Shown one piece after another: positions 1,371 through 64,000 of a DNA stretch of 64,000 nt. This stretch comes from Eledone cirrhosa. Its lineage: Eukaryota. The notes under the pieces are model-generated. The model ran no database searches. It was not told the origin of the DNA and worked only from the letters and a program-made list of their open reading frames with translations. The stretch is taken from contig OZ024760.1 of NCBI GenBank assembly GCA_964016885.1, forward strand, positions 21,452,001-21,516,000. The letters are read 5' to 3'. The position numbers were made by a program, and so were the translations under genes. Each line of letters starts with the position of its first letter. The stretch's first letter is position 1.

Positions 1371-1435
1371 TAGCTGTCTGTCTGCCTGCCTGAAAAAGGT
1401 CAAATTCCTTTAACTGTTTCTTTGCTGTTTGACAG

Positions 1436-1752
1436 TCCGCCGTGGTGATGTCCTGTCAGCCTGGAGCGGGATCCGTCCTCTTGTCAGAGACCCAAACAAA
1501 TCTGATACACAATCACTGGCTCGGAATCACATCATTGAAGTGTCGGATGATAACCTGATCACAATTGCTGGAGGAAAGTGGACAACATACCGACATATGG
1601 CTGAAGAGACCATTGATAAAGCAATTGCAGTATGTTGCCTGGAACCCGCTGTTCCAACATGTCAGACAAAAGGTCTGTTATTGGATGGAGCTCATGGATG
1701 GTCCCCAACACTGTTTATACGACTGGTGCAGGACTTTGGCTTAGACAATGAA
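1436..1752 (+). CDS. GPD2: GPD2 internal exon (mitochondrial FAD-dependent glycerol-3-phosphate dehydrogenase, C-terminal domain)
   Basis: VRRGDVLSAWSGIRPLVRDP...LARNH...LITIAGGKWTTYRHMAEETID is the diagnostic GlpD/GPD2 segment. AG acceptor at 1434-1435, GTAAG donor at 1753. Confidence 0.95.
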
Positions 1753-1810
1753 GTAAGGCTTGGTTTTGTTGTTGTTGTTGACAAATCTGTTTATATATAT
1801 ATATATATAT

Positions 1811-2182
1811 GGAGGCACATGGCTTAGTGGTTAGAGCATTGGCCTTGCAATCGAAAAGTTGTGAGTTCAATTCTCAGACCGGGTGATGTGTTGTTTCCTT
1901 GAGCAAGACACTTTATTTCACATTGCTCCAGTTTACTCAGCTGTAGAAATGAGATGATAGGGACTGGGGTCCCTATCGTTCCACTGCAAAGTGGTCGTGG
2001 AGGTGCCACGGCAAAAAAGCACCCAGCCCACACTGCAAAGTGGTCGTGGAGATGCCACAGCAAAAAAAAAGCACCCAGCACTCACTGTAAATGAGGTTGG
2101 TGTTAGGAAGGGCATCCGGATGTAGAAATCAAGCCTAAATCAGTTCCCGTCCCACCCTTGCAAGCAGGGAAAAAGCGGACGA
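1811..2182 (+). mobile_element. tRNA-derived SINE, family A
   Basis: A box TGGCTTAGTGG, B box GTTCAATTC, ccttgagcaagacact core, RTE-like tail cccttgcaagcaggg...gcggacg. Confidence 0.85.
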
Positions 2183-42440: not shown

Positions 42441-42830
42441 TTTTTTCTGCTATAAATTATTTATGGCCAGTTTAATGGTCACTCCCACGCCTCTAGCCCC
42501 CATATATACACTCACGTTTATGTATCAATCAGTACCCCCAGAATGTTGGCTCCATGGAACTCCCTGCTCATGTCTTTCTCCCTCAAAAGCACACTATCAT
42601 TTCCAGAAACAGATCTGTCCGTAACATATATATATTACCATCTTAAAATAAATATTAATTGTTCTGTACAAAATACTAGTGGTTTTTAAATAAATTTATT
42701 TATAGAAACGAAATGAGAATGAGTTTACACGCCTCAAAATATATTCCGTGTGTTATTTCTTTCCATATATATTTTTTTAAATAAATAAAATGTTACCTAT
42801 AAGTATGACTTTTATTTACTAAGTAACATT

Positions 42831-42950
42831 GTCCCTTCGCGTGGCGATACGCGTAGCGGTTCGGACTTTATCGCCTACTTATGTATGGCGTGACCATTCC
42901 ATGCGTCTGAAGATCGAATCACTGCGGTGGCAGGCTGAGTAATGCTTTTT
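42831..42950 (+). ncRNA. Candidate Pol III small RNA gene 1 (unidentified)
   Basis: GC-rich island; upstream TACCTATAAGTATG (42794-42807); hairpin GGCGATA/TATCGCC; B-box match GATCGAATC (42912-42920); T5 end; paralogous to 44205-44362. Confidence 0.45.
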
Positions 42951-44204
42951 GCTCTAAATTTGATTAGAGTTACTTCCTCTTTATGGAACTCTTCCCATTT
43001 TGGATACTGTTTTCATTGCTGTACACTAGCACCATCTCTCTATACGCACTTTATGTCAATAACACTCACATTTTGGATATTGTGTTCATGTGTATTTTCT
43101 TTACTGTGGCTTTCTGGCACATCTTCACCCACTTTAAAACTAAAAAAACGACTAGACATACAAATAGTGTTCCAAACATCGGAAGAACGCGAATAAAAAA
43201 CGTTAAAAATTTGGATTTTACTAATTTTATGGAGGTAAAGTAAAGCTTTATTTTATGTTGATCACTTTTATTAAAACAATTTCTGTTTATTTCTCTCCAT
43301 AATGTCAGAAATAATTATTTAAACGTTAGTTTTGTTTAGCTTCTGTCACACCTCTACATTCTAATCTAATACAACACACCTCTCACACAGTCTTAGTTTC
43401 TTTTTTTCAGAAACTTCATTTACAGTTCCCCCTTTAGTGATTTACATCTACATTCTTAGTTTCTTTAATGTTACATTCCTTGGTGTAGGAAAAGGTTTTC
43501 TTGTTTCCTCTATTTAAATGTATATATAATAAAATACAAAATAGTTTTGTTTAGCTTCTGTCACACCTTACATTCAAATGTAATACAACACACCTCCCCC
43601 ACAAATAGTTTATTCTTTAGATTAGTAAATAATATATCCTCGTATTTTATAATCAGAGGTAAACTGTTGATCGGTGTTAACTAGATATCGCTTTTACTTT
43701 TAACCTACAAAACATAGAACATTCTTAGTTTGGGGTCTCTTGCCCAGCGATTCATTGGAGAAAAAAATATAAACGAGGTAATTCGTTCTGAATAGAGATT
43801 TTCATAAGGAAATTGTATATGTCTATATGTGTCTTCCTAATAAATGTAGCGGTCTTGGTGTCAGTACGGAGGTAAGTAATCTTTAATTTTAATTATTCAT
43901 TGGAGAAAAAAATATAAACGAAATGAATGGAGGTAATTCGTTCTGAATAGAGATTTTCATAAGGAAATTGTTAGTGCGCTGGACGATGTTTTTATTTAAT
44001 GAATATAATTTCATAATTTATAGAGAAAAAAAGGTTCAGAGGTCGAATCCCTCATCGTCACAATACCACCAATGCGCTAATAATTTTCTTGTAAAAAATC
44101 TCTACTCAGAACCCCAAATTACCTCCCTTCGTTTCGTTTATATTTTTTTTAAACAAAAATTGTGAAAAGTACCCATAAGTATGTGTTTGGAACTCAGTAG
44201 AATT

Positions 44205-44362
44205 GCGGCCTTCGAGGTGGCGCGCGAGCTGCGTCTCGTATCGCCAGTCCCAGTGACTGACGTTCGTTTCGTAGTGGCGTGCGACTGCTAAAAGGGCCTG
44301 GGACTGTCTGGGCCGGTACTTAGATTACTGGCCCGTCCCAGACCACCTCGGAGAATCTTTTT
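44205..44362 (+). ncRNA. Candidate Pol III small RNA gene 2 (unidentified)
   Basis: Upstream TACCCATAAGTATG (44170-44183); 11-bp terminal stem CTTCGAGGTGG/CCACCTCGGAG; internal stems CAGTCCCAG/CTGGGACTG and GGGCCGGTA/TACTGGCCC; T5 end. Confidence 0.5.
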
Positions 44363-44499
44363 GCTAAAAAAAACGTGAATTATCTCCCCTTGGATTTTAC
44401 CTCCCTTGATTTTAAGAATTCATTTTGATTTTTCGAATTGATTTAGATTTCTCGACTTTTCTGTATATATATAAATTTCGAAATTTGCACATTCAATAA

Positions 44500-46400
44500 T
44501 ACACATTTCATATAGAATTTTTTTTCGACTTTTTAAAAACACGCATTTCATATGGAATTTTTTTTGATACTTTCAAAAACACTCGTTTCATATAGAATTT
44601 TTTTCGACTCTTCAAAAACACGTTCCATATAGAAATTTTTTTGACACTTTCAAAAACACTCGTTTCATATAGAATTTATTTTCGACTTTTCAAAAACACG
44701 CATTTCATATGGATTTTTTTTTGACACTTTCAAAAACACTCGTTTCATATGGAATTTTTTTTCGACTTTTCAAAAACACCCATTTCATATAGAATTTTTT
44801 TTTGACTTTTCAAAAACACTTGTTTCATATAGAATTTATTTTCGACTTTTCAAAAACACCCATTTCATATATAATTTTTTTTTGACACTTTCAAAAACAC
44901 TCGTTTCATATAGAATTTTTTTTCGACTTTTCAAAGACACCCATTTCATATAGAATTTTTTTTCGACTTTTCAAAAACACTTGTTTCATATAGAATTTAT
45001 TTTCGACTTTTCAAAAACACCCATTTCATATAGAATTTTTTTTCGACTTTTCAAAAACACTTGTTTCATATAGAATTTTTTTTCGACTTTTCAAAAACAC
45101 TCATTTCATATAGAATTTTTTTTGACACTTTCAAAAACACACATTTCATATAGAATTTTTTTTCGACTTTTCAAAAACACACATTTCATATAGAATTTTT
45201 TTTGACACTTTCAAAAACACTCGTTTCATATAGAATTTTTTTTCGACTTTTCAAAAACACTCATTTCATATAGAATTTATTTTCGACTTTTCAAAAACAC
45301 ACATTTCATATAGAATTTTTTTTCGACTTTTCAAAAACACTCGTTTCATATAGAATTTTTTTTCGACTTTTCAAAAACACTTGTTTCATATAGAATTTTT
45401 TTTCGACTTTTCAAAAACACTCATTTCATATAGAATTTTTTTTGACACTTTCAAAAACACACATTTCATATAGAATTTTTTTTCGACTTTTCAAAAACAC
45501 TCGTTTCATATAGAATTTTTTTTCGACTTTTCAAAAACACCCATTTCATATAGAATTTTTTTTCGACTTTTCAAAAACACTCATTTCATATAGAATTTTT
45601 TTTCGACTTTTCAAAAACACTCATTTCATATAGAATTTTTTTTGACACTTTCAAAAACACACATTTCATATAGAATTTTTTTTCGACTTTTCAAAAACAC
45701 CCATTTCATATAGAATTTTTTTTGACACTTTCAAAAACACTCATTTCATATAGAATTTTTTTTGACACTTTCAAAAACACACATTTCATATAGAATTTTT
45801 TTTCGACTTTTCAAAAACACCCATTTCATATAGAATTTTTTTTCGACTTTTCAAAAACACTCATTTCATATAGAATTTTTTTTGACACTTTCAAAAACAC
45901 TCATTTCATATAGAATTTTTTTTGACACTTTCAAAAACACACATTTCATATAGAATTTTTTTTCGACTTTTCAAAAACACACATTTCATATAGAATTTTT
46001 TTTCGACTTTTCAAAAACACACATTTCATATAGAATTTTTTTTGACACTTTCAAAAACACACATTTCATATAGAATTTTTTTTTCGACTTTTCAAAAACA
46101 CACATTTCATATGGAATTTTTTTTGACACTTTCAAAAACACTCGTTTCATATAGAATTTTTTTTCGACTTTTCAAAAACACTCATTTCATATAGAATTTT
46201 TTTTGACACTTTCAAAAACACACATTTCATATAGAATTTTTTTTCGACTTTTCAAAAACACACATTTCATATAGAATTTTTTTTGACACTTTCAAAAACA
46301 CTCATTTCATATAGATTTTTTTTTTCGACTTTTCAAAAACACACATTTCATATAGAATTTTTTTTGACACTTTCAAAGACACTCATTTCATATAGAATTT
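44500..46400. repeat. 40-bp satellite array, about 47 copies, two sub-variants
   Basis: tttcatatagaattttttt(tcgacttt|tgacactt)tcaaaaacacNca. Confidence 0.95.
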
Positions 46401-47131
46401 TTTTCCTAGACACTTCATTTACATTCTTTTTAGACACTTCATTTAGAATCTTAGTTTCTTTTTTTAGACACTTCATTTAGTTTCTTTTTTTTAGACACTT
46501 CATTTAGATTCTTAGTTTCTTTTTTTAGACACTTCATCTACATTCTTAGTTTCATTTTCATATTCAAGGGAAACAACTCATGTTTTTAAAGAGTTACCTA
46601 CCTTGAATTTAAAAAAAAAAAAATTGAAGGGAGACAACTCATGTTTTTAAAGAGTTAACTCCCTTGAATAAAAAAAAAAAAACTCTCCCCTTTGTTGATA
46701 GAGTTACGTTCATTTAATAAAAAAAAACATGACTTATTGTCTTTGAAAGAGTTAATTCCTGTACTAAAATATATTCCGAAGGAGGTTTTAGACAGTCGGT
46801 ATTTCTTTCGAAGACAAGAGACGTTTATATGTCTCGACGCTGATTTCTTTCTTCAAAATATTAACACAACTAGTATATAATATGTAAAGATTTCTTTATT
46901 AACAGAAACTTTGTTTATGAGGCTAAAAGCCAATCTTTTTTTGTCAAATAAACTGTAAATAATATGTAAAAAATTTTTTATTAACAAAAACTTTATTCAT
47001 ACAATTCGTAAATAATATGTAAACATATTTTTATTAACAGACACTCCATCACTGTTCAGGAAACTTGAACTTGTAAATACTTTCACAATCAAAACCTTCT
47101 TTCAGTGGTTGCAGCAAACAACACAGCATAT

Positions 47132-50100
47132 GGCCGAGAAGGCTGGACATCTGTAAGAAAAATGAAATAAGAAAAACTATGAAAGTCATTTATGTACATT
47201 GTCAATAAAAAAATTAAACTTTCTAAAATTCTTCCAGCTTTGTCTTTTACTATAATATATATAAATACACATATGGATATATATGTATATATACTTAGAA
47301 CTTTATAAAATTCTTTCACGTATATAGTGATATTCCATTATATATGTACATATACAATAATACATGTATATATACAGAAAGAAGAAAACCTGTTACTACG
47401 TTGAGTTTGTCAAATATTTTTTTATTAAAGCTACTTATAGGTAATAGGGATGTGGTCCGGGAGCCACCAATACTTTGGCAGGTTGCCACAACATACACAG
47501 ATGAAGGGCCTACCCCCACGATGATTGTCAAGCTGGGAAGGGAAGCCTGGTGACCAGCACCTTAAGTCCACGACAGTGAGGCTCACAGATAAGGGAAAGC
47601 CAGGTGTGGAGTTGAGAGGACGAGTGAAAACATGCCAGTGTTTATAAAGAAACTAAGAATGGAAATGTAAATGAAGTGTTTTAAAACGTAATGTAAGTGA
47701 GGTGTCTAAAAAGAAACCAAGAATTTATATGAAGTGTCCAAAAACATCTATCTAAGGGCCTACCCTGGCGATGATTGTCAAGCTCGCCGATCGAGCTGGG
47801 AAGGGACATTCTTAGTTTCTCTCTTAAGAAACTTCATCTACATTCTTAATTTCTCTCTTAAGAATGTAGATGAAGTTTCTCAAAAAAAGAAACTAAGAAT
47901 GTAAATAGAGGAAACCTTTTCCTACATCAAGAAAGAAACTGAGAATGTAAATGACCCCCCCCCCCCCCAATCTTTATCAAAGTGTCGAAATACAATCTAT
48001 ATGGAATATACGGTCTTTGAAAAATCTTGTTCTATGTTACGTTGGTTAAAAGCAATATCTAATTAACACTGATTACAAAATACGAGGATATATTATTTAC
48101 CAACTTACATAATCTAAAGAATACGCTATTTGTGGGGGAGGTGTGTTGTATTAGATTAGAATGTAAGGTGTGACAGAAGCTAAACAAAACTATTTTGTCT
48201 TTTATTATATATACATTTAACTAGAGGAAACAAGAAAACCTTTTCCTACATCAAGGAAGGTAACACTAAAGAAACTAAGAATGTAGATGAAGTTTCTGAA
48301 TAAAGAAACTAAGAGGTGTGTTGTACTAGATTAGAATGTAAGGTGTGACGGAAGCTTAACAAAACTAATGTTTAAACAGAAAATGTCTAAATAAAACTGA
48401 TCAACATAAAATAAAGTTTTACTTTACCTCCGTAAAATTAGTAAAATCCAAGTTTTTAACGTTTTTTATTCACGTTGGAAAACATGAAGTTCTTCAGGCG
48501 ACCATTTAATTTATTTTACTAAAGCACGCATGCGCCGAAAGAAATTGGACATCAATGCGCATGCGCAAAGTATTGATGTAAAGTTGTCGCTCTTTACAAT
48601 CGTGAGTTCGATTCTCACACCGGGCTTTGCGTTGTGTTCTTGAGCAAGACACTTTATTTCACGTTGGAGAAGATCACTGTCGTGGAGCTACAACAACGAA
48701 AGATTTCTCTCTACCTACAAGAGGACAGGTGAGAAAGAAATAGAGAAGATAATAAAAATGTAGCTGTATATAGAGGTTTCTTATACTTATAGCTAAAATT
48801 TTATTTATTAAAAAAAAATATATATATAGAAACGGAACGAAAGCAAGATAATACGCCTCAAAATATATTCCGTGTGTTACCTCACTCTCATTCCGTTTCT
48901 ATATATAAATTAATTTAGAAACTACTAGTATTTAGTACATATATGCCGAACAATTAATATGTTAAGTAAATATACAGGTTTCTGTAAATAAAAATTGTTG
49001 TTTATCACCGGGTTTCCTTGTTAAATGTCTCTCCCTCGATAGGATACCGGTCTATCGCAGGATTAACTACTGAGTGTACTGGAGCAACACGAAATAAAGT
49101 ATTTTCTTTTAAAAGAACATTTGAGTGTGTTGGCTGTTAACTACACAGGAAGAAGTATACAGCAGATTTCTTCCAGAGAAAGCTTTTCACAAAGTCTCCT
49201 ATTCCATTATCTGGAGCAAATGTGACAGACGAGGTTTTATTGACTGTAGGAGATCCTATGAGAAGTTTACATGTGTAAGCTCCTTATTTCGCCATCTGAC
49301 CTGGTTTTAGCTAACTAACGTTTATCATGGTTTAGATATAATATATGTAAATGATTTTATGGATACAATTTGAGTGGCCTAATCTTGTAGTGAACCGAGG
49401 CAGTTTCTTTTGCAAATTTAAAGAAGGCCGAGAAGGCTGGACATCTGTAAGAAAAACTATGAAAGTCATTTATGTATATTGTCAATAAAAAAAATTAAAC
49501 TTTCTAAAATTCTTCCAGCTTTGTCTTTTACTATAATATATATAAATACACATATGGATATATATGTATATATACTTAGAACCTTATAAAATTCTTTCAC
49601 GTATATAGTGAAATTCCATTATATATGTACATATACAATAATTGTTTCTACTTTTGGCACAAGGCCATCAATTACCCAGTACATTACTGGTACTTTATTT
49701 TATCGACCCCGTAAGGATGAAAGGCAAAGTTAACCTCGGCGGGATTTGAACTCAGACTGTAAAGGGAGGACGTAACTATGCTGGAAAGCATGGCGTCCGA
49801 CTCTCTACCGATACTGCCAATCCACACCCGTTGTACATATACAATAATACAGAAAGAAGAAAACCTGTTACTACGTTGAGTTTGTCAAATATTTTTTATT
49901 AAAGCTACTTATAGGTAATAGGGATGTGGTCCGGGAGCCACCAATACTTTGGCAGGTTTCCACAACATACACAGATGAAGGGCCTACCCCCGCGATGATT
50001 GTCAAGCTGGGAAGGGAAGCCTGGTGACCAGCACCTTAAGTCCACGACAGTGAGGCTCACAGATAAGGGAAAGCCAGATGTGGAGTTGAGAGGACGAGTG

Positions 50101-55859: not shown

Positions 55860-58800
55860 ACGACAGAATAATTAAAATAAGACTTGTTCTAAATAGAACT
55901 ACTGTGACGATAATATCTGCGTACGCGCCCCAATCCGGACTGCCTGGCGCTATAAAAGACACTTTCTATGAGACACTGATGCTCACTACCTCCCAAATAA
56001 CCGACAGTGACTATATAATTATTGCTGGCGACCTAAATGGTCACGTTGGACAACATTGTGACGACTATGATGAAATCCATGGGGGCTATGGGTTTGGTAC
56101 TAGAAATGAGGAAGGCTCCAGAATCCTGGAATTCTGTGATGCAAATAACCTAACTATCTGTAACACTATCTTCAAAAAACGAGACAATCACTTGATCACC
56201 TACAGATCAGGGGAACATACCAGCCAGGTAGATTATATCCTTACCAGAAGACGTGACAGAGTGACTGTTGTAAACACTAAATTCCTCCCCCATGAAGAAT
56301 GCACCTCCCAACATAGACTGATAATTAGCGACCTCATAGTCAGGACGAGACGTACTTGACAGCAGAAGAGGACTATCCTCAAGAGAAAAATATGGAAGCT
56401 AAAGGACCCCACAGCCAGAAATAAATTTCAAAGCATATTACTTGATGCTTTCGACAGTAAGGAAGAGCATTTAGAGTCGGACAATATAGAGGGACAGTGG
56501 GAATTCCTGAAAGCAAACCTGCTGATGGCGGCAGACGAAGTCTGTGGCCGGAGCAGGCCTATAGGCAGGAGGAGAGTAACATGGTGGTGGAACAGTAAGG
56601 TGGAGGAGTCGATTAAGGCCAAAAAGCAGGCTTGGAAAATATGGCGGGATGGGGGAAGTAGAGAAGACTATCAAGTGGCCAGGAGGGAAGCTAGGAGACA
56701 AGTGTACTTCGCAAGAAGGGAAGCAGAGGAAAGAAAGTTCAAGCATGTTCTACAACGCGAGGACCAAAAACGTGAGGTGTTCAGGATTGCTAGGCAATGT
56801 GTCAAGGAAAACTGTGATATTGTTGGGGAGAAGTGTGTACTAAGTGATGATGGCGTACTTGCCATCACTGACGCTGATAAGAAGGTAGCTTGGAAGTGTC
56901 ACTACGAGAGGCTACTAAATGAGGAGAATAAATGGGAGAAGGATAGTCTCCCCCAGATTGATCCAATAGAGGGACCAGCAGTGTTAGTTGAAGGTAGTAT
57001 AATAAGTAAGGCAATCAAAGATATGAAGACGGGTAAGGCGGCTGGGCCTTCGGAAATAGCTGCTGAGATGCTGAAGGCCTCTGGAACGGTGGGACACACC
57101 ATGGTCACCCGGATAGTAAACCAAGTCATACAGAATGGGGTTGTTCCGAAGGACTGGCGTAGCAGCATCATCATTAACTGTTACAAGGGTAAAGGAGACG
57201 CCCTAGATAGGAGTGACTATAGAGGGATTAAATTAATCGACCAGGTCATGAAGGTCACGGAAAAAGTAATAGTGCAACTAATCAGAGAGAGAATCGATCT
57301 AGATGAAATGCAGTTCGGGTTTGTGTCAGGCAAAAGTACCACAGATGCTCTTTTCGTTGAACGACAACTACAGGAGAAGTACCTAGCTAAAAGTAAACCC
57401 CTATACTTAGCCTTTGTCAACTTGGAGAAAGTCTTCGACAGAGTCCCCCGTTCCATTATCTGGTGGGCTCTTAGAAAACTAGGTGTTGACGAATGGCTTG
57501 TGAGAGCTATACAAGCCATGTATAAAGAAACAGTGAGCAAGGTTAGAATTAACAACGAATATAGTGAAGAGTTTAGCGTAAAAGTTGGTGTCCATCAGGG
57601 CTCTGTTCTTAGCCCCCTACTATTCATTATTGCTCTTCAGGCTATAACAGAGGAGTTCAAGACCGGCTGCCCATGGGAACTCCTATACGCAGATGACCTA
57701 ACACTCATAGCTGAATCAATGGCCGAGCTAGAGAAGAAATTCCAAACATGGAAGCACGGCCTAGAATCAAAAGGCCTTAAAATTAACCTGGCTAAGACTA
57801 AAGTTCTAGTTTGTAGGAAAGAAAATAAGGCGCCGGTCCCTTCCGGGAAATGGCCATGCTCAGTGTGTAGGAAAGGCGTAGGTAGAAACTCCATTTTATG
57901 TCCCAAATGCAAAGTATGGGTGCATAAAAGATGTAGTGGGATCACAGGTAAGCTAACTAAGAACACAGATTTTACATGTGGCCGGTGCTCTGGTGCAATA
58001 AGTAGCAGCAAGTGCCCACAAAATACTAGCTCTTTCAACTGCGCAGAGGGTTCTATAGAAATAGTGGACAGCTTCCGTTACCTGAGTGACAAAATCAGCA
58101 GTGGGGGAGGGTGCTCCGAAAGTACAGTAGCTAGAGTCAGAACTGGATGGAAAAAGTTCAGAGAGCTTATACCACTATTAGCCGCTAAAGGGTTCTCCCT
58201 AAAAATGAAAGGCAGGTTGTATGATGCCTGCATACGAACAGCAATGTTGCATGGCAGTGAGACCTGGGCATTGTGTGCAGAGGATATACGCAGACTAGAG
58301 AGGAACGAAGCTTGCATGCTCCGCTGGATGTGTAATAGTAATATACGCGAACGGCAAAGCATAAACGAACTAAGGAAAAAATTAGAAATAAGAGGGATCA
58401 GATGTTGTTTACTTGAGAGAAAGCTATGTTGGTATGGTCACGTGATGCGCATGAAAGACGACAGCTGTATAGCAAAGTGCAGGGCAATAAAGATAGACGG
58501 TAGCCACGGAGTAGGCAGACCCAGAAAAACATGGGACGAGCTGATAAATTCCGACCTCACACACTTACACCTCTCCAAGACAATGTCACTGGACTGAGAG
58601 CTTTGGCGGTACTCAGTAATAGAGAAGACCCGCCTTACCTAAATACAAAGTAAAACCTACTACAGTCAGTAGGCATCTCTAACAAAATACACCCCCGTCT
58701 TACCACCCCCACCCCATCCACACCGCCCCTTTCAATGTAAAGTTATGTTGGTGCCACAAAATCCAGGCCGAAACAAATGAGATCGTGTAGGTGTCACGAC

Positions 58801-62212: not shown

Positions 62213-63493
62213 TTACATTGCTGTGTGGGTAGCTACATGTTTAGTTAAGTTACTTATTTTAGAGAATGATTTGCCACAGATATCACAGTGATATGGCTTC
62301 TCTCCTGTATGAAAACATTTGTGTTTAGTGAGATAATTACTTCCAGAAAATGATTTATTACAGATATCACAGTGATATGGTTTTTCTCCTGTATGAATAC
62401 GTTTGTGTCTAGATAAGTCACTGCTTCCAGGGAATGATTTATTACAGATATCACAGTGGTATGGCTTCTCTCCTGTATGAATACGTCTATGGGTAGTTAC
62501 ATGATCTTTTTTAGAGAATGATTTATCACAGATGTCACAGTGATATGGCTTCTCCCCTGTGTGAACTCGTATGTGCCTAGTTAAGGTACCACATCCAGAA
62601 AATGATTTACCGCAGATATCACAGTGATATGGCTTTTCTCCTGTATGAATGTATTTGTGTTTACTCAAGTCACTACTTCCAGAGAATGATTTACCACAGA
62701 TATCACAGAGATATCGTTTTTCTCCTGTATGAATACGTTTGTGTTTACTTAAGTCACTACTTCCGGAGAATGATTTATCACAGATATCACAATGATATGG
62801 TTTCTCTCCTGTATGAATACGTCTGTGAGTAGTTGCATGATCTTTTTTAGAGAAGGATTTACCACAGATATCACAGGGATATGGCTTCTCTCCTGTATGA
62901 ATACGTGTGTGTGTAGTTACATGATCTTTTTTAGAAAATGATTTACCACAGATATCACAGTGATATAGGTTATCTCTTGTATGAATGCGTTTGTGAGTAG
63001 TTAAGTGACCAGTATGAGAGAATATTTTACCACAAATATCACAGGGATAAGATTTCTTTTGTGTATGAGTACGTTTGTGAGTAGTTAAGTGGCCAGACTG
63101 AGAGAATGATTTACCACAGACATGACAGTGATATGGCTTCTCTCCTGTATGAATACGTTTGTGACTGGTTAAGTTAACTTTCTGAGAGAATGATTTACCA
63201 CAGATGTCACATTGATGAGGTTTCTTTCCTGTATGAGAACATTTGTGAGACGTTAAGGAACCAATCTGAGAGAATGATTTACTACAGATATTACAGTGGT
63301 ATTCCTTTGCATCTGTATGTGTACATTTATGTTTAGTTAAGCTACTACTATGAGAAAATAATTTACCACAGATATCACAGTGATGTGGTTTCTCTCCTGT
63401 ATAAATACATTTGTGAGTAGTTAAGTCACCTTTCCGAGAGAGTGATCTACCACAGATATCACACTGATATGATTTTTTCACAACTTTAAGCAT
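62213..63493 (-). CDS. C2H2 zinc-finger array protein, 15 tandem fingers, no recognisable effector domain
   Basis: 426 aa of [10 protein letters not shown]-x6[10 protein letters not shown] repeats; finger 1 ends HKCIY (degenerate). Possible 5' UTR splice acceptor (ttatttcag on -) just upstream at about 63528. Confidence 0.93.
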
Positions 63494-64000
63494 TTTTTTC
63501 AGTATAAAATATCTATCTATTAAATTTCTGAAATAATTCTTTTATCCATTATTTTTTCTTCTCTCTCTCTCTTCAATATATGGATATTTTCTGTCTTGAT
63601 TTCAAATCCCACCGAGGTCAACTTTGCCTTTCATCCTTCCAGAGGTCGATAAAATAAAGTACCAGTCAAGTACTAGGGGTTGATTTTCCACCTCTTTCTC
63701 TCTCTCTCTCTCCAATATATCTTATATTTTTCTTGGCTCTGTTTCTAAGTTAAATTCCTTCAGCTGTGATCTTTGTTGATGTCTGAAGATGTTTCAAACT
63801 GTTTTGTAAATGTATCCAACTTTAATTTAAATACAAAAATCTCCAGTGAAGAAGGAAAATGTTGCCCATTAATTACAGTTCAGAAGAAATACTTCACAGT
63901 AATTCATCCAGAGATTTATAGAAACAGTATCATATGAGTTCTATATAACATTTTCCTTTAGTCTTTAAATGGTGTCAATGTGAAAAAAAATAATTTTATG

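What the first reader, a model, noticed from the sequence alone, without database searches (positions are those of the whole stretch)
42794..44365. Two paralogous structured GC-rich units that look like an unrecognised Pol III small-RNA gene family
Seen: in otherwise very AT-rich DNA, two GC islands 1.4 kb apart share the same layout. Both have an upstream motif TACC(T/C)ATAAGTATG placed 40 and 39 nt before a shared start CCTTCG..GTGGCG. Both have an ACT(A/C)AGTA..ATTG spacer, a 5' hairpin closed by GGCG...TATCGCC, pairing between 5' and 3' ends (11 bp in unit 2), and a shared end GAG(T)AAT(G)CTTTTTGCT. Their middles are unalignable yet still fold. Unit 1 has an exact B-box match (GATCGAATC). 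Unit 2 has two GTCCCAG segments competing for one CTGGGAC, so alternative folds are possible. Established: upstream TATA/PSE-like element, terminal stem and oligo-T are hallmarks of Pol III RNAs such as vault, Y, 7SK and viral VA/EBER. Inference: these are small ncRNA genes that I cannot match from memory to U6, U6atac, 7SL, 7SK, Y, vault or tRNA.
Basis: partly seen in the sequence, partly recalled or inferred. Interest (0 to 1): 0.78.

Follow-up and report, generated by a model that had tools for sequence, protein, structure and literature searches.

The report
New multicopy Pol III RNA family
The two units belong to an undescribed family of at least 185 small genes found almost only on this animal's small chromosomes; one relative left an RNA-derived copy elsewhere in the genome, and the genes are likely read by RNA polymerase III into folded RNAs that would bind double-stranded-RNA-binding proteins.

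Summary
The two units are members of a family with at least 185 places in the genome, 171 of them on the small chromosomes C12-C27. No Rfam family matches. Unit 2 (type B, 158 nt) folds into a four-way junction kept by compensatory changes. Unit 1 (type A) is homologous but has lost its 3' arm, and type A shows no covariation. The upstream motif is not this genome's U6/U2 PSE. It is a TATA-like box at -31/-24, followed by an A-box-like motif, a B box and a T5 run: the hybrid Pol III layout of 4.5SH, EBER and 7SL. A motif at about -86 also lies upstream of U6 and U2 genes here. A promoterless copy on C7 is identical to a type-A RNA body from +8 to its T-run, is fused to a SINE and is flanked by a 10-bp target duplication. 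This points to a discrete germline transcript of at least one member. Copies spread as DNA inside 5-50 kb stations about 1.6 Mb apart. No RNA data were available. The function is inferred: a snaR/VA-like protein decoy, with a chromatin-landmark role as the main rival.

The parts
42794..42807 (+). Unit 1 upstream motif; holds the TATA-like box (42798-42805, at -33 here because of a 2-nt insertion)
   Evidence: spacing compared with U6 and 7SK TATA boxes
42831..42950 (+). Unit 1: predicted 120-nt type-A RNA, 3' arm deleted; A-box-like 42842-42852, B box 42912-42920, T5 42946-42950
   Evidence: start inferred from spacing and from retrocopy ends
42701..42770 (+). Short imperfect inverted repeat before unit 1; its loop is inverted relative to most type-A copies and it is weak in this copy
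43850..43871 (+). 22-nt exon-like piece with a consensus donor (GT at 43872), conserved before many type-B units; predicted non-coding Pol II exon
43910..44145 (+). Long imperfect hairpin just before the unit 2 promoter, more stable on the + strand
   Evidence: (z -12.3, 0 of 200 shuffles)
44119..44129 (+). TTAYYTCCCTT element at -86, also found upstream of U6 and U2 genes; a second copy at 44397-44407
44170..44183 (+). Unit 2 upstream motif; TATA-like box 44174-44181 at -31/-24
44205..44362 (+). Unit 2: predicted 158-nt type-B RNA, four-way junction; terminal stem 44210-44220/44343-44353, A-box-like 44218-44228, imperfect B box 44262-44270, T5 44358-44362
44492..46404 (.). 40-bp satellite (47.8 copies) that follows many units of the family
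47030..47150 (-). Conserved acceptor plus short exon ending in AATAAA, convergent with the units; reading frames broken among copies; predicted last exon of a non-coding Pol II transcript
48520..48795 (-). Right arm of the station: type-A upstream motif without an RNA body (48782-48795), followed by GCGCATGCGC-type sites (NRF1-like, label recalled)

Best explanation
The two units are members of a family of at least 185 small genes that are likely transcribed by RNA polymerase III from a hybrid promoter into 120-195-nt RNAs, of which type B is predicted to fold into a four-way junction and would act as an abundant decoy or scaffold for double-stranded-RNA-binding proteins, as snaR and VA RNAs do. 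Shown: copy number and distribution, the fixed promoter layout (element at -86, TATA-like box at -31/-24, A-box-like motif at +12/+14, B box at +58 or about +84, T run), covariation in type B, and a retrocopy of a type-A RNA that ends at the T-run. Inferred: TFIIIC binds the boxes, TFIIIB is placed on the TATA-like box, Pol III starts at the G of GCGGC and stops in the T-run; copies multiply as DNA, by segmental duplication and conversion of larger stations. Least supported: the protein partner; a plausible role is to temper editing or dicing of the long hairpins and convergent transcripts that the same stations are predicted to make. My odds: Pol III gene family about 0.85; RNA structure of type B under selection about 0.7; decoy mechanism about 0.35.
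For: Counts: 66 type-B and 101 type-A core matches, 0 in the reversed-pattern controls. Promoter: 129 of 140 distinct hits keep the upstream motif; TATA at -30/-31 in U6 and 7SK of this genome; a -31/-24 box with A box at +12 to +22 and B box is the described layout (PMC7279448, passages); TTAYYTCCC lies at -262 to -288 of 3 of 3 U6 loci and 1 of 2 U2 loci, background 0.052 per kb, and a looser form lies before 68 of 88 units. Fold: 98.1% of 679 cells pair in 17 type-B copies, 5 of 40 pairs change on both sides, 0 of 500 shuffles; the + strand has the lower z in 20 of 20 full-length type-B copies; a single-copy type C folds the same way with other letters and scores 64.6 bits on the type-B model. 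Between subfamilies identity peaks on the RNA (0.80) and promoter (0.70-0.78) and falls to 0.51-0.63 in the flanks. Transcript: G000:C7:20128222-20128364 is 143 of 143 nt identical to the body of the unit at C15:1.742 Mb, from +8 to the third T, fused to a full SINE and flanked by a 10-bp duplication; a second piece (+5 to about +74) is fused to a LINE-type tail on C3. This is the structure of U6/L1 and U6/SINE template-switch chimeras (PMC4476161, passages).
Against: No RNA was observed; the retrocopies come from other type-A members, not from units 1 or 2. Type A shows no covariation (181 of 500 shuffles reach its pairing) and often lacks the 3' arm (present in 0.40-0.72 of 57 copies), so much of the family may be decaying or selected only for its promoter. 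The type-B structure was derived from the alignment on which it was tested, and its five double changes are about five events in related copies. Unit 2's B box and both A boxes are imperfect. Nothing here names a binding protein; the decoy step rests on analogy alone. Sequence peaks could reflect gene conversion rather than selection.
Confidence: 0.5

Rival explanations
1. The units work in cis: Pol III/TFIIIC occupancy marks stations along the small chromosomes (insulation, opening of the adjacent Pol II promoter, or clustering of stations), and the RNA is a by-product or a local scaffold.
For: In type A the B-box window is the best kept (present 0.99, majority letter 0.93) while the 3' arm decays. 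One type-B subgroup is followed by 6-11 tandem B-box-containing repeats, and B-box motifs are 5.7 per 10 kb in stations against 0.2 in controls. Type-A units sit just before an ETS-like site and a splice donor. Stations lie a median 1.6 Mb apart.
Against: Type B keeps its helices by double changes and type C keeps the fold, which a DNA-only role does not need. The B-box peak is partly built in: the copies were collected with unit 1, which lacks the 3' arm, and with patterns that include the B box.
Confidence: 0.25
2. The units are passengers of a selfish duplicon or non-autonomous DNA element and have no function for the host.
For: Copies carry shared flanks, satellites and long palindromes; two C25 stations share collinear flanks over tens of kb; many copies are deleted.
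Against: No terminal repeats with target duplications at the 7 paired stations examined; no transposase-like open frame among the frames printed for 50 loci (read by eye); the RNA and promoter are better kept than the flanks.
Confidence: 0.12
3. The units are a SINE, or SINE master genes, that spread by retroposition.
For: Internal A/B boxes; type A aligns collinearly with the host's abundant SINE, 5 of 9 copies at p below 0.035 with box-preserving shuffles; retrocopies exist.
Against: 129 of 140 hits keep upstream promoter sequence, which retroposition does not copy; no LINE-type tail; a SINE profile scores 0 of 77 units; type B shows no SINE likeness (0 of 8). An old SINE ancestry remains open (about 0.45).
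Confidence: 0.05
4. The RNA is cut out of a Pol II host transcript (intron-derived, snoRNA- or pri-miRNA-like), or is a diverged member of a known family such as vault or Y RNA.
For: Type-B units lie behind a conserved splice donor and the stations carry short non-coding exons; the motif contains GTATG, which could be read as a donor.
Against: Fixed spacing of the motif to the start even where it is a poor donor (C25 subgroup); B box and T-run; the retrocopy ends at the T-run; no Rfam match for types A, B or C even at loose E-values.
Confidence: 0.08

Closest known systems
Rodent 4.5SH and 4.5SI RNA genes
   Same: A and B boxes with a TATA-like box at -31/-24; lineage-restricted; 4.5SH has hundreds of copies, each inside a 4-5-kb repeat (PMC7279448 and PMC10137851, passages).
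   Different: 4.5SH genes are tandem and clearly B1/7SL-derived, and act against exonization of antisense B1 (as cited in PMC10137851). This family is dispersed over many small chromosomes, longer, has no significant likeness to 7SL and is too far from the host SINE for long pairing.
snaR family of great apes
   Same: Structured Pol III RNAs, multicopy, spread by segmental duplication of a core with its flanks (PMC3045588, abstract and section 19).
   Different: snaR is Alu-derived, about 117 nt, clustered mainly on one chromosome, and shown to bind NF90; here the origin is unresolved and no partner is known.
Adenovirus VA RNA and EBV EBER
   Same: Type 2 Pol III promoters, with upstream elements in EBER (PMC7279448, passages); about 160-170 nt with a terminal stem and a B box inside an arm (recalled).
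   Different: Viral genes. No match in viral contigs (0 and 0), no Rfam match, no viral protein frames noticed near the units.
U6/L1 and WEIRD/SINE template-switch chimeras
   Same: RNA copy at the 5' side, retroelement at the 3' side, one target duplication around both (PMC4476161, passages; PMC2104539, abstract).
   Different: Applies only to the retrocopies on C7 and C3, not to the genes.

Membership tests
Type 2 Pol III gene with TATA-like box | TATA-like box at -31/-24 | tested here: met
   Unit 2 at 44174-44181; fixed spacing across copies; unit 1 at -33
Type 2 Pol III gene with TATA-like box | A box near +12 to +22 | tested here: inconclusive
   TGGCG at +12 (type A, as in this genome's 7SL) or +14 (type B), but the rest departs from consensus
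Type 2 Pol III gene with TATA-like box | B box GWTCRANNC downstream | tested here: met
   Exact in unit 1, most type A, type C and part of type B; one mismatch in unit 2
Type 2 Pol III gene with TATA-like box | Ends in a run of four or more T | tested here: met
   T5 in both units; retrocopy stops in the run
Type 2 Pol III gene with TATA-like box | Transcription depends on Pol III | not testable with these tools
   No RNA or ChIP data
   Motif absent upstream of U6, U2, 7SL and 7SK; another element and the TATA position are shared
U6, 7SK, 7SL, vault, Y, tRNA, VA, EBER (Rfam) | Match to the family's covariance model | tested here: not met
   0 at gathering; none on the units up to E 10; 0 for types A, B, C up to E 0.05; ARAGORN 0; separate U6, 7SL, 7SK genes exist
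Vault RNA / Y RNA | Binding to vault particles or Ro60 | not testable with these tools
   Needs pull-down
SINE | Unrelated flanks and target duplications at each copy | tested here: not met
   129 of 140 hits keep the upstream motif; flanks align
SINE | Descent from the host's tRNA-type SINE | tested here: inconclusive
   5 of 9 type-A and 0 of 8 type-B copies at p below 0.035 (post hoc); profile 0 of 77
4.5SH / snaR | Derived from 7SL/Alu/B1 | tested here: not met
   No significant alignment to this genome's 7SL
4.5SH / snaR | Amplified as DNA with flanks | tested here: met
4.5SH / snaR | Bound by NF90, or pairs with antisense SINE exons | not testable with these tools
   Needs RNP work
Cut-and-paste or Helitron-type DNA element | Defined ends with target duplication; an autonomous partner | tested here: inconclusive
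   None seen at 7 paired stations, two of which ran past the DNA fetched; no partner frame in 50 loci; no genome-wide search

The most novel reading that the evidence does not exclude
The stations are a chromosome-class marking system: every 1-2 Mb along the small chromosomes, a Pol III gene for a four-way-junction RNA, B-box and octamer arrays, long hairpins and convergent non-coding transcripts together set chromatin state or homolog pairing, with chromosome-typical sequence variants acting as addresses. This would be a roX/Xist-like or pairing-centre-like device for autosomes, run partly by Pol III.
Probability: 0.12. Interest if true: 0.9.

Novelty: new variant of a known kind. Interest (0 to 1): 0.64.

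Why it matters
Lineage-restricted, multicopy Pol III RNAs with their own upstream promoter are known to me mainly from mammals and their viruses (4.5SH, BC1, snaR, VA, EBER). This would be such a family in an octopus-like invertebrate (taxon read from recalled features, not tested), with a fold outside Rfam, genomic evidence of germline transcription, and an unexplained restriction to the small chromosomes at roughly regular spacing. It gives direct targets for testing how these chromosomes are organised and, if the taxon is right, how an animal known for heavy RNA editing (recalled) handles double-stranded RNA. The shared upstream element is also a candidate distal element of snRNA promoters in this lineage.

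Tried and rejected
Sequencing runs: no RNA holder listed; the three listed runs (one sample, one study, kind not on record) gave contigs covering the whole stretch, which cannot show expression and may be the window's own sample. Viral contigs: 0 and 0 matches. Metagenome contigs: 3 matches, none followed by family sequence. Other animal genomes could not be searched, so the family's range is unknown. One search used a wrong gap and is void. The motif alone is a poor marker: 121 matches against 27 in the control, and 27 of the first 30 loci were not family members. HDV-like, hammerhead or other ribozyme: no Rfam match. 7SL ancestry or antisense pairing with 7SL, U6, U2 or 7SK: best p 0.017 among the 70 tests against these RNAs. 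A peptide in the conserved last exon: frames broken by stops and indels across the 42 acceptors listed. Link to zinc-finger clusters: no C2H2 array of three or more fingers in two 110-kb regions on C25 or in 130 loci (the script was not checked on a positive control), although the window has one 18 kb away. Transposon ends: none. Unweighted RNAalifold on type A failed because of gaps, so its structure was set by hand. Literature: six searches for a description of this family or motif listed nothing relevant; the library lacks most subscription journals, and no supplement was read. Earlier findings: none for this genome or sequence; two look-alike ideas from other genomes were not used.

Full report
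Observation. The motif occurs exactly twice in the window, once before each unit. Unit 2 folds far better than its shuffles (z -3.98); unit 1 does not (z -0.20). Rfam gives nothing at gathering score over the window, nothing on the units up to E 10, and nothing for five loci holding types A, B and C up to E 0.05. ARAGORN finds no tRNA. The window is G000:C21:21452001-21516000 in a 3.0-Gb animal genome. I call it octopus-like from recalled features (zinc-finger arrays, the SINE, the LINEs); no call tested the taxon.

The family. Each unit gave the maximum of 40 scored matches, from 80 and 230 candidates. Core patterns gave 66 type-B and 101 type-A matches with 0 in the reversed controls; a third pattern gave 26, of which 19 were new. 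Pooling the 66, the 100 listed and the 19 gives 185 places, 171 of them on C12-C27, which make up about a fifth of the genome. They fall into 139 stations when places within 50 kb are merged, with a median gap of 1.6 Mb (quartiles 0.7 and 2.7, 111 gaps). These are lower bounds. C1-C6 hold four places: two at one station on C6, and two promoterless pieces on C2 and C3. Copies on one chromosome are often near-identical. Types A and B align from end to end, and unit 1 is a type-A copy that lost about 70 nt of the 3' arm. A third type, C, matches only itself in the genome.

Fold. From the 34 rows labelled B I aligned 17, leaving out 4 near-duplicates, 3 truncated copies and 10 that were type A. 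The consensus is an 11-bp terminal stem and a junction with a long arm that carries the B box, a small hairpin, and a bulged arm. 98.1% of 679 cells pair and 5 of 40 pairs change on both sides; 0 of 500 shuffles reach either value. The structure came from this alignment and the copies are related, so this counts as about five events, not as a probability. The + strand has the lower z in 20 of 20 full-length type-B copies (40 shuffles each). Type C folds the same way with different letters and scores 64.6 bits on the type-B model. Against: 20 type-A copies, chosen as the more complete ones, show no covariation on a hand-set structure (181 of 500), and the 3' arm is often deleted.

Promoter. Its (C/T)ATAAGTA lies at -31/-24 from the G of GCGGC; the U6 and 7SK TATA boxes start at -30 and -31. 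A TATA-like box at -31/-24, an A box at +12 to +22 and a B box is the layout described for 4.5SH, 4.5SI, 7SL and EBER (PMC7279448, passages). The units have TGGCG at +12 or +14, a B box at +58 (type B) or about +84 (type A), and a T-run. A second element, TTAYYTCCC, lies 262-288 nt upstream of 3 of 3 U6 loci and 1 of 2 U2 loci against a background of 0.052 per kb. A looser form (one mismatch allowed) lies at -69 to -95 in 68 of 88 units, and unit 2 has it exactly at -86. 129 of 140 distinct profile hits keep the upstream motif. Between the two main type-B subgroups (24 pairs), identity is 0.80 on the RNA, 0.70-0.78 over the 100 nt before it and 0.51-0.63 further out.

Evidence of a transcript. 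At G000:C7:20128222-20128364 a 143-nt piece is identical to the body of the type-A unit at C15:1.742 Mb, from +8 to the third T of the T-run. It has neither promoter nor flank, joins directly to the 5' end of a full SINE, and a 10-bp duplication, found only twice in that 8 kb, surrounds both parts. Ordinary copies of this SINE carry their duplication right at the SINE's own ends. This is the structure of template-switch chimeras known for U6 with L1 and with SINEs (PMC4476161, passages), and for an unknown abundant fungal RNA (PMC2104539, abstract). A second piece, +5 to about +74, is fused to an abundant LINE-type tail on C3; no duplication was seen there. Both start within 7 nt of the predicted +1 and hold no upstream sequence. 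I infer that at least some type-A members are made as discrete RNAs in the germline and end at the T-run. This does not show that units 1 and 2 are transcribed. No RNA run was listed.

Surroundings. Units sit in stations with satellites, long hairpins, convergent pairs and palindromes. A 22-nt exon-like piece with a consensus donor and then a long hairpin (z -12.3) precede many type-B units. An ETS-like site and a donor follow type-A units. A conserved acceptor opens a short exon with a poly(A) signal and broken frames. I read these as non-coding Pol II transcripts. One subgroup is followed by octamer motifs and tandem B boxes. Two C25 stations share collinear flanks from about -40 kb to +8 kb. 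No element ends, target duplications or transposase frames were seen. Spread by segmental duplication and conversion, as for snaR (PMC3045588, abstract and section 19), fits best.

Origin. There is no significant likeness to 7SL, U6, U2 or 7SK. Type A aligns start to start with the host's SINE, B boxes in register; 5 of 9 type-A and 0 of 8 type-B copies beat box-preserving shuffles at p below 0.035, but a SINE profile scores 0 of 77 units. The test was post hoc and the copies are related, so SINE ancestry, as for 4.5SI (PMC10137851, passages), stays open.

Mechanism. Shown: copy number, distribution, promoter layout, covariation in type B, the chimeric retrocopy. Inferred: Pol III transcription (about 0.85) and selection on the type-B fold (about 0.7). 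For function I commit to a trans-acting decoy or scaffold for double-stranded-RNA-binding proteins (about 0.35), by analogy with snaR, which binds NF90 (PMC2094060, search listing), and VA RNA (recalled). The long imperfect helices, the closed ends and the high gene dosage fit this; no partner was tested. The main rival is a cis role as a Pol III/TFIIIC landmark (0.25), favoured by the B-box arrays, the spacing, and the retention of the B box in decaying type-A copies, a retention that is partly an effect of how I collected them.

Novelty and verdict. It is not a member of any Rfam family and not a SINE by its mode of spread. It works like the mammalian 4.5SH/snaR kind of gene, with another fold, host and genomic arrangement: a new variant of a known kind. 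Six literature searches listed no description; the library is incomplete and no supplements were read. Interest 0.64. The boldest reading not excluded, a marking system for the small chromosomes, has a probability of about 0.12 and would deserve 0.9.

Noticed in passing
L031, L032, L033 (U6) and L173 (U2), about 262-288 nt upstream of the gene: The same element TTAYYTCCCTT lies in the same orientation upstream of 3 of 3 U6 loci and 1 of 2 U2 loci, not of 7SL (0 of 2) or 7SK (0 of 1); candidate distal snRNA promoter element of this lineage.
   Followed up: partly
L083:4948-5449 and L084:4391-6653 (G000:C20, 35.22-35.24 Mb); L089: Palindromes of several kb at 97-100% arm identity; on C20 the centre is a GC-rich branched hairpin that recalls hairpin-end junctions.
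   Followed up: partly
L076:5370-6110, also L078, L157, L159, L160, L163, L165: Tandem repeats carrying 6-11 perfect B boxes, next to octamer motifs, downstream of one type-B subgroup.
   Followed up: partly
window 43910-44145: A 236-nt hairpin behind a splice donor, conserved before type-B units; candidate substrate for editing or dicing.
   Followed up: partly
L170:5215-5377 (G000:C18:36570169-36570419): Type C: the only match to itself in the genome, perfect B box, same fold; possibly an old founder-like copy.
   Followed up: partly
L151:3410-3495 (G000:C2): Promoterless partial type-B copy ending at a TA repeat; possible retrocopy, no target duplication seen.
   Followed up: partly
window 1414-1827 (+): Exon of a glycerol-3-phosphate dehydrogenase-like gene (DAO_C, E 1e-4, below the curated cut-off).
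   Followed up: no
window 62213-63541 (-): Open C2H2 zinc-finger array of 442 aa.
   Followed up: no
window 56360-58597 (+): Open 745-aa LINE frame with reverse transcriptase and PHD-like finger; such elements could supply the activity that made the chimeras.
   Followed up: no
G000:C19:31.78-31.84 Mb; C12:42.10-42.13 Mb; C3:307.35-307.45 Mb: Tandem arrays of U6, 7SL and U2 genes; in some U6 repeats a SINE has landed in the TATA box.
   Followed up: no
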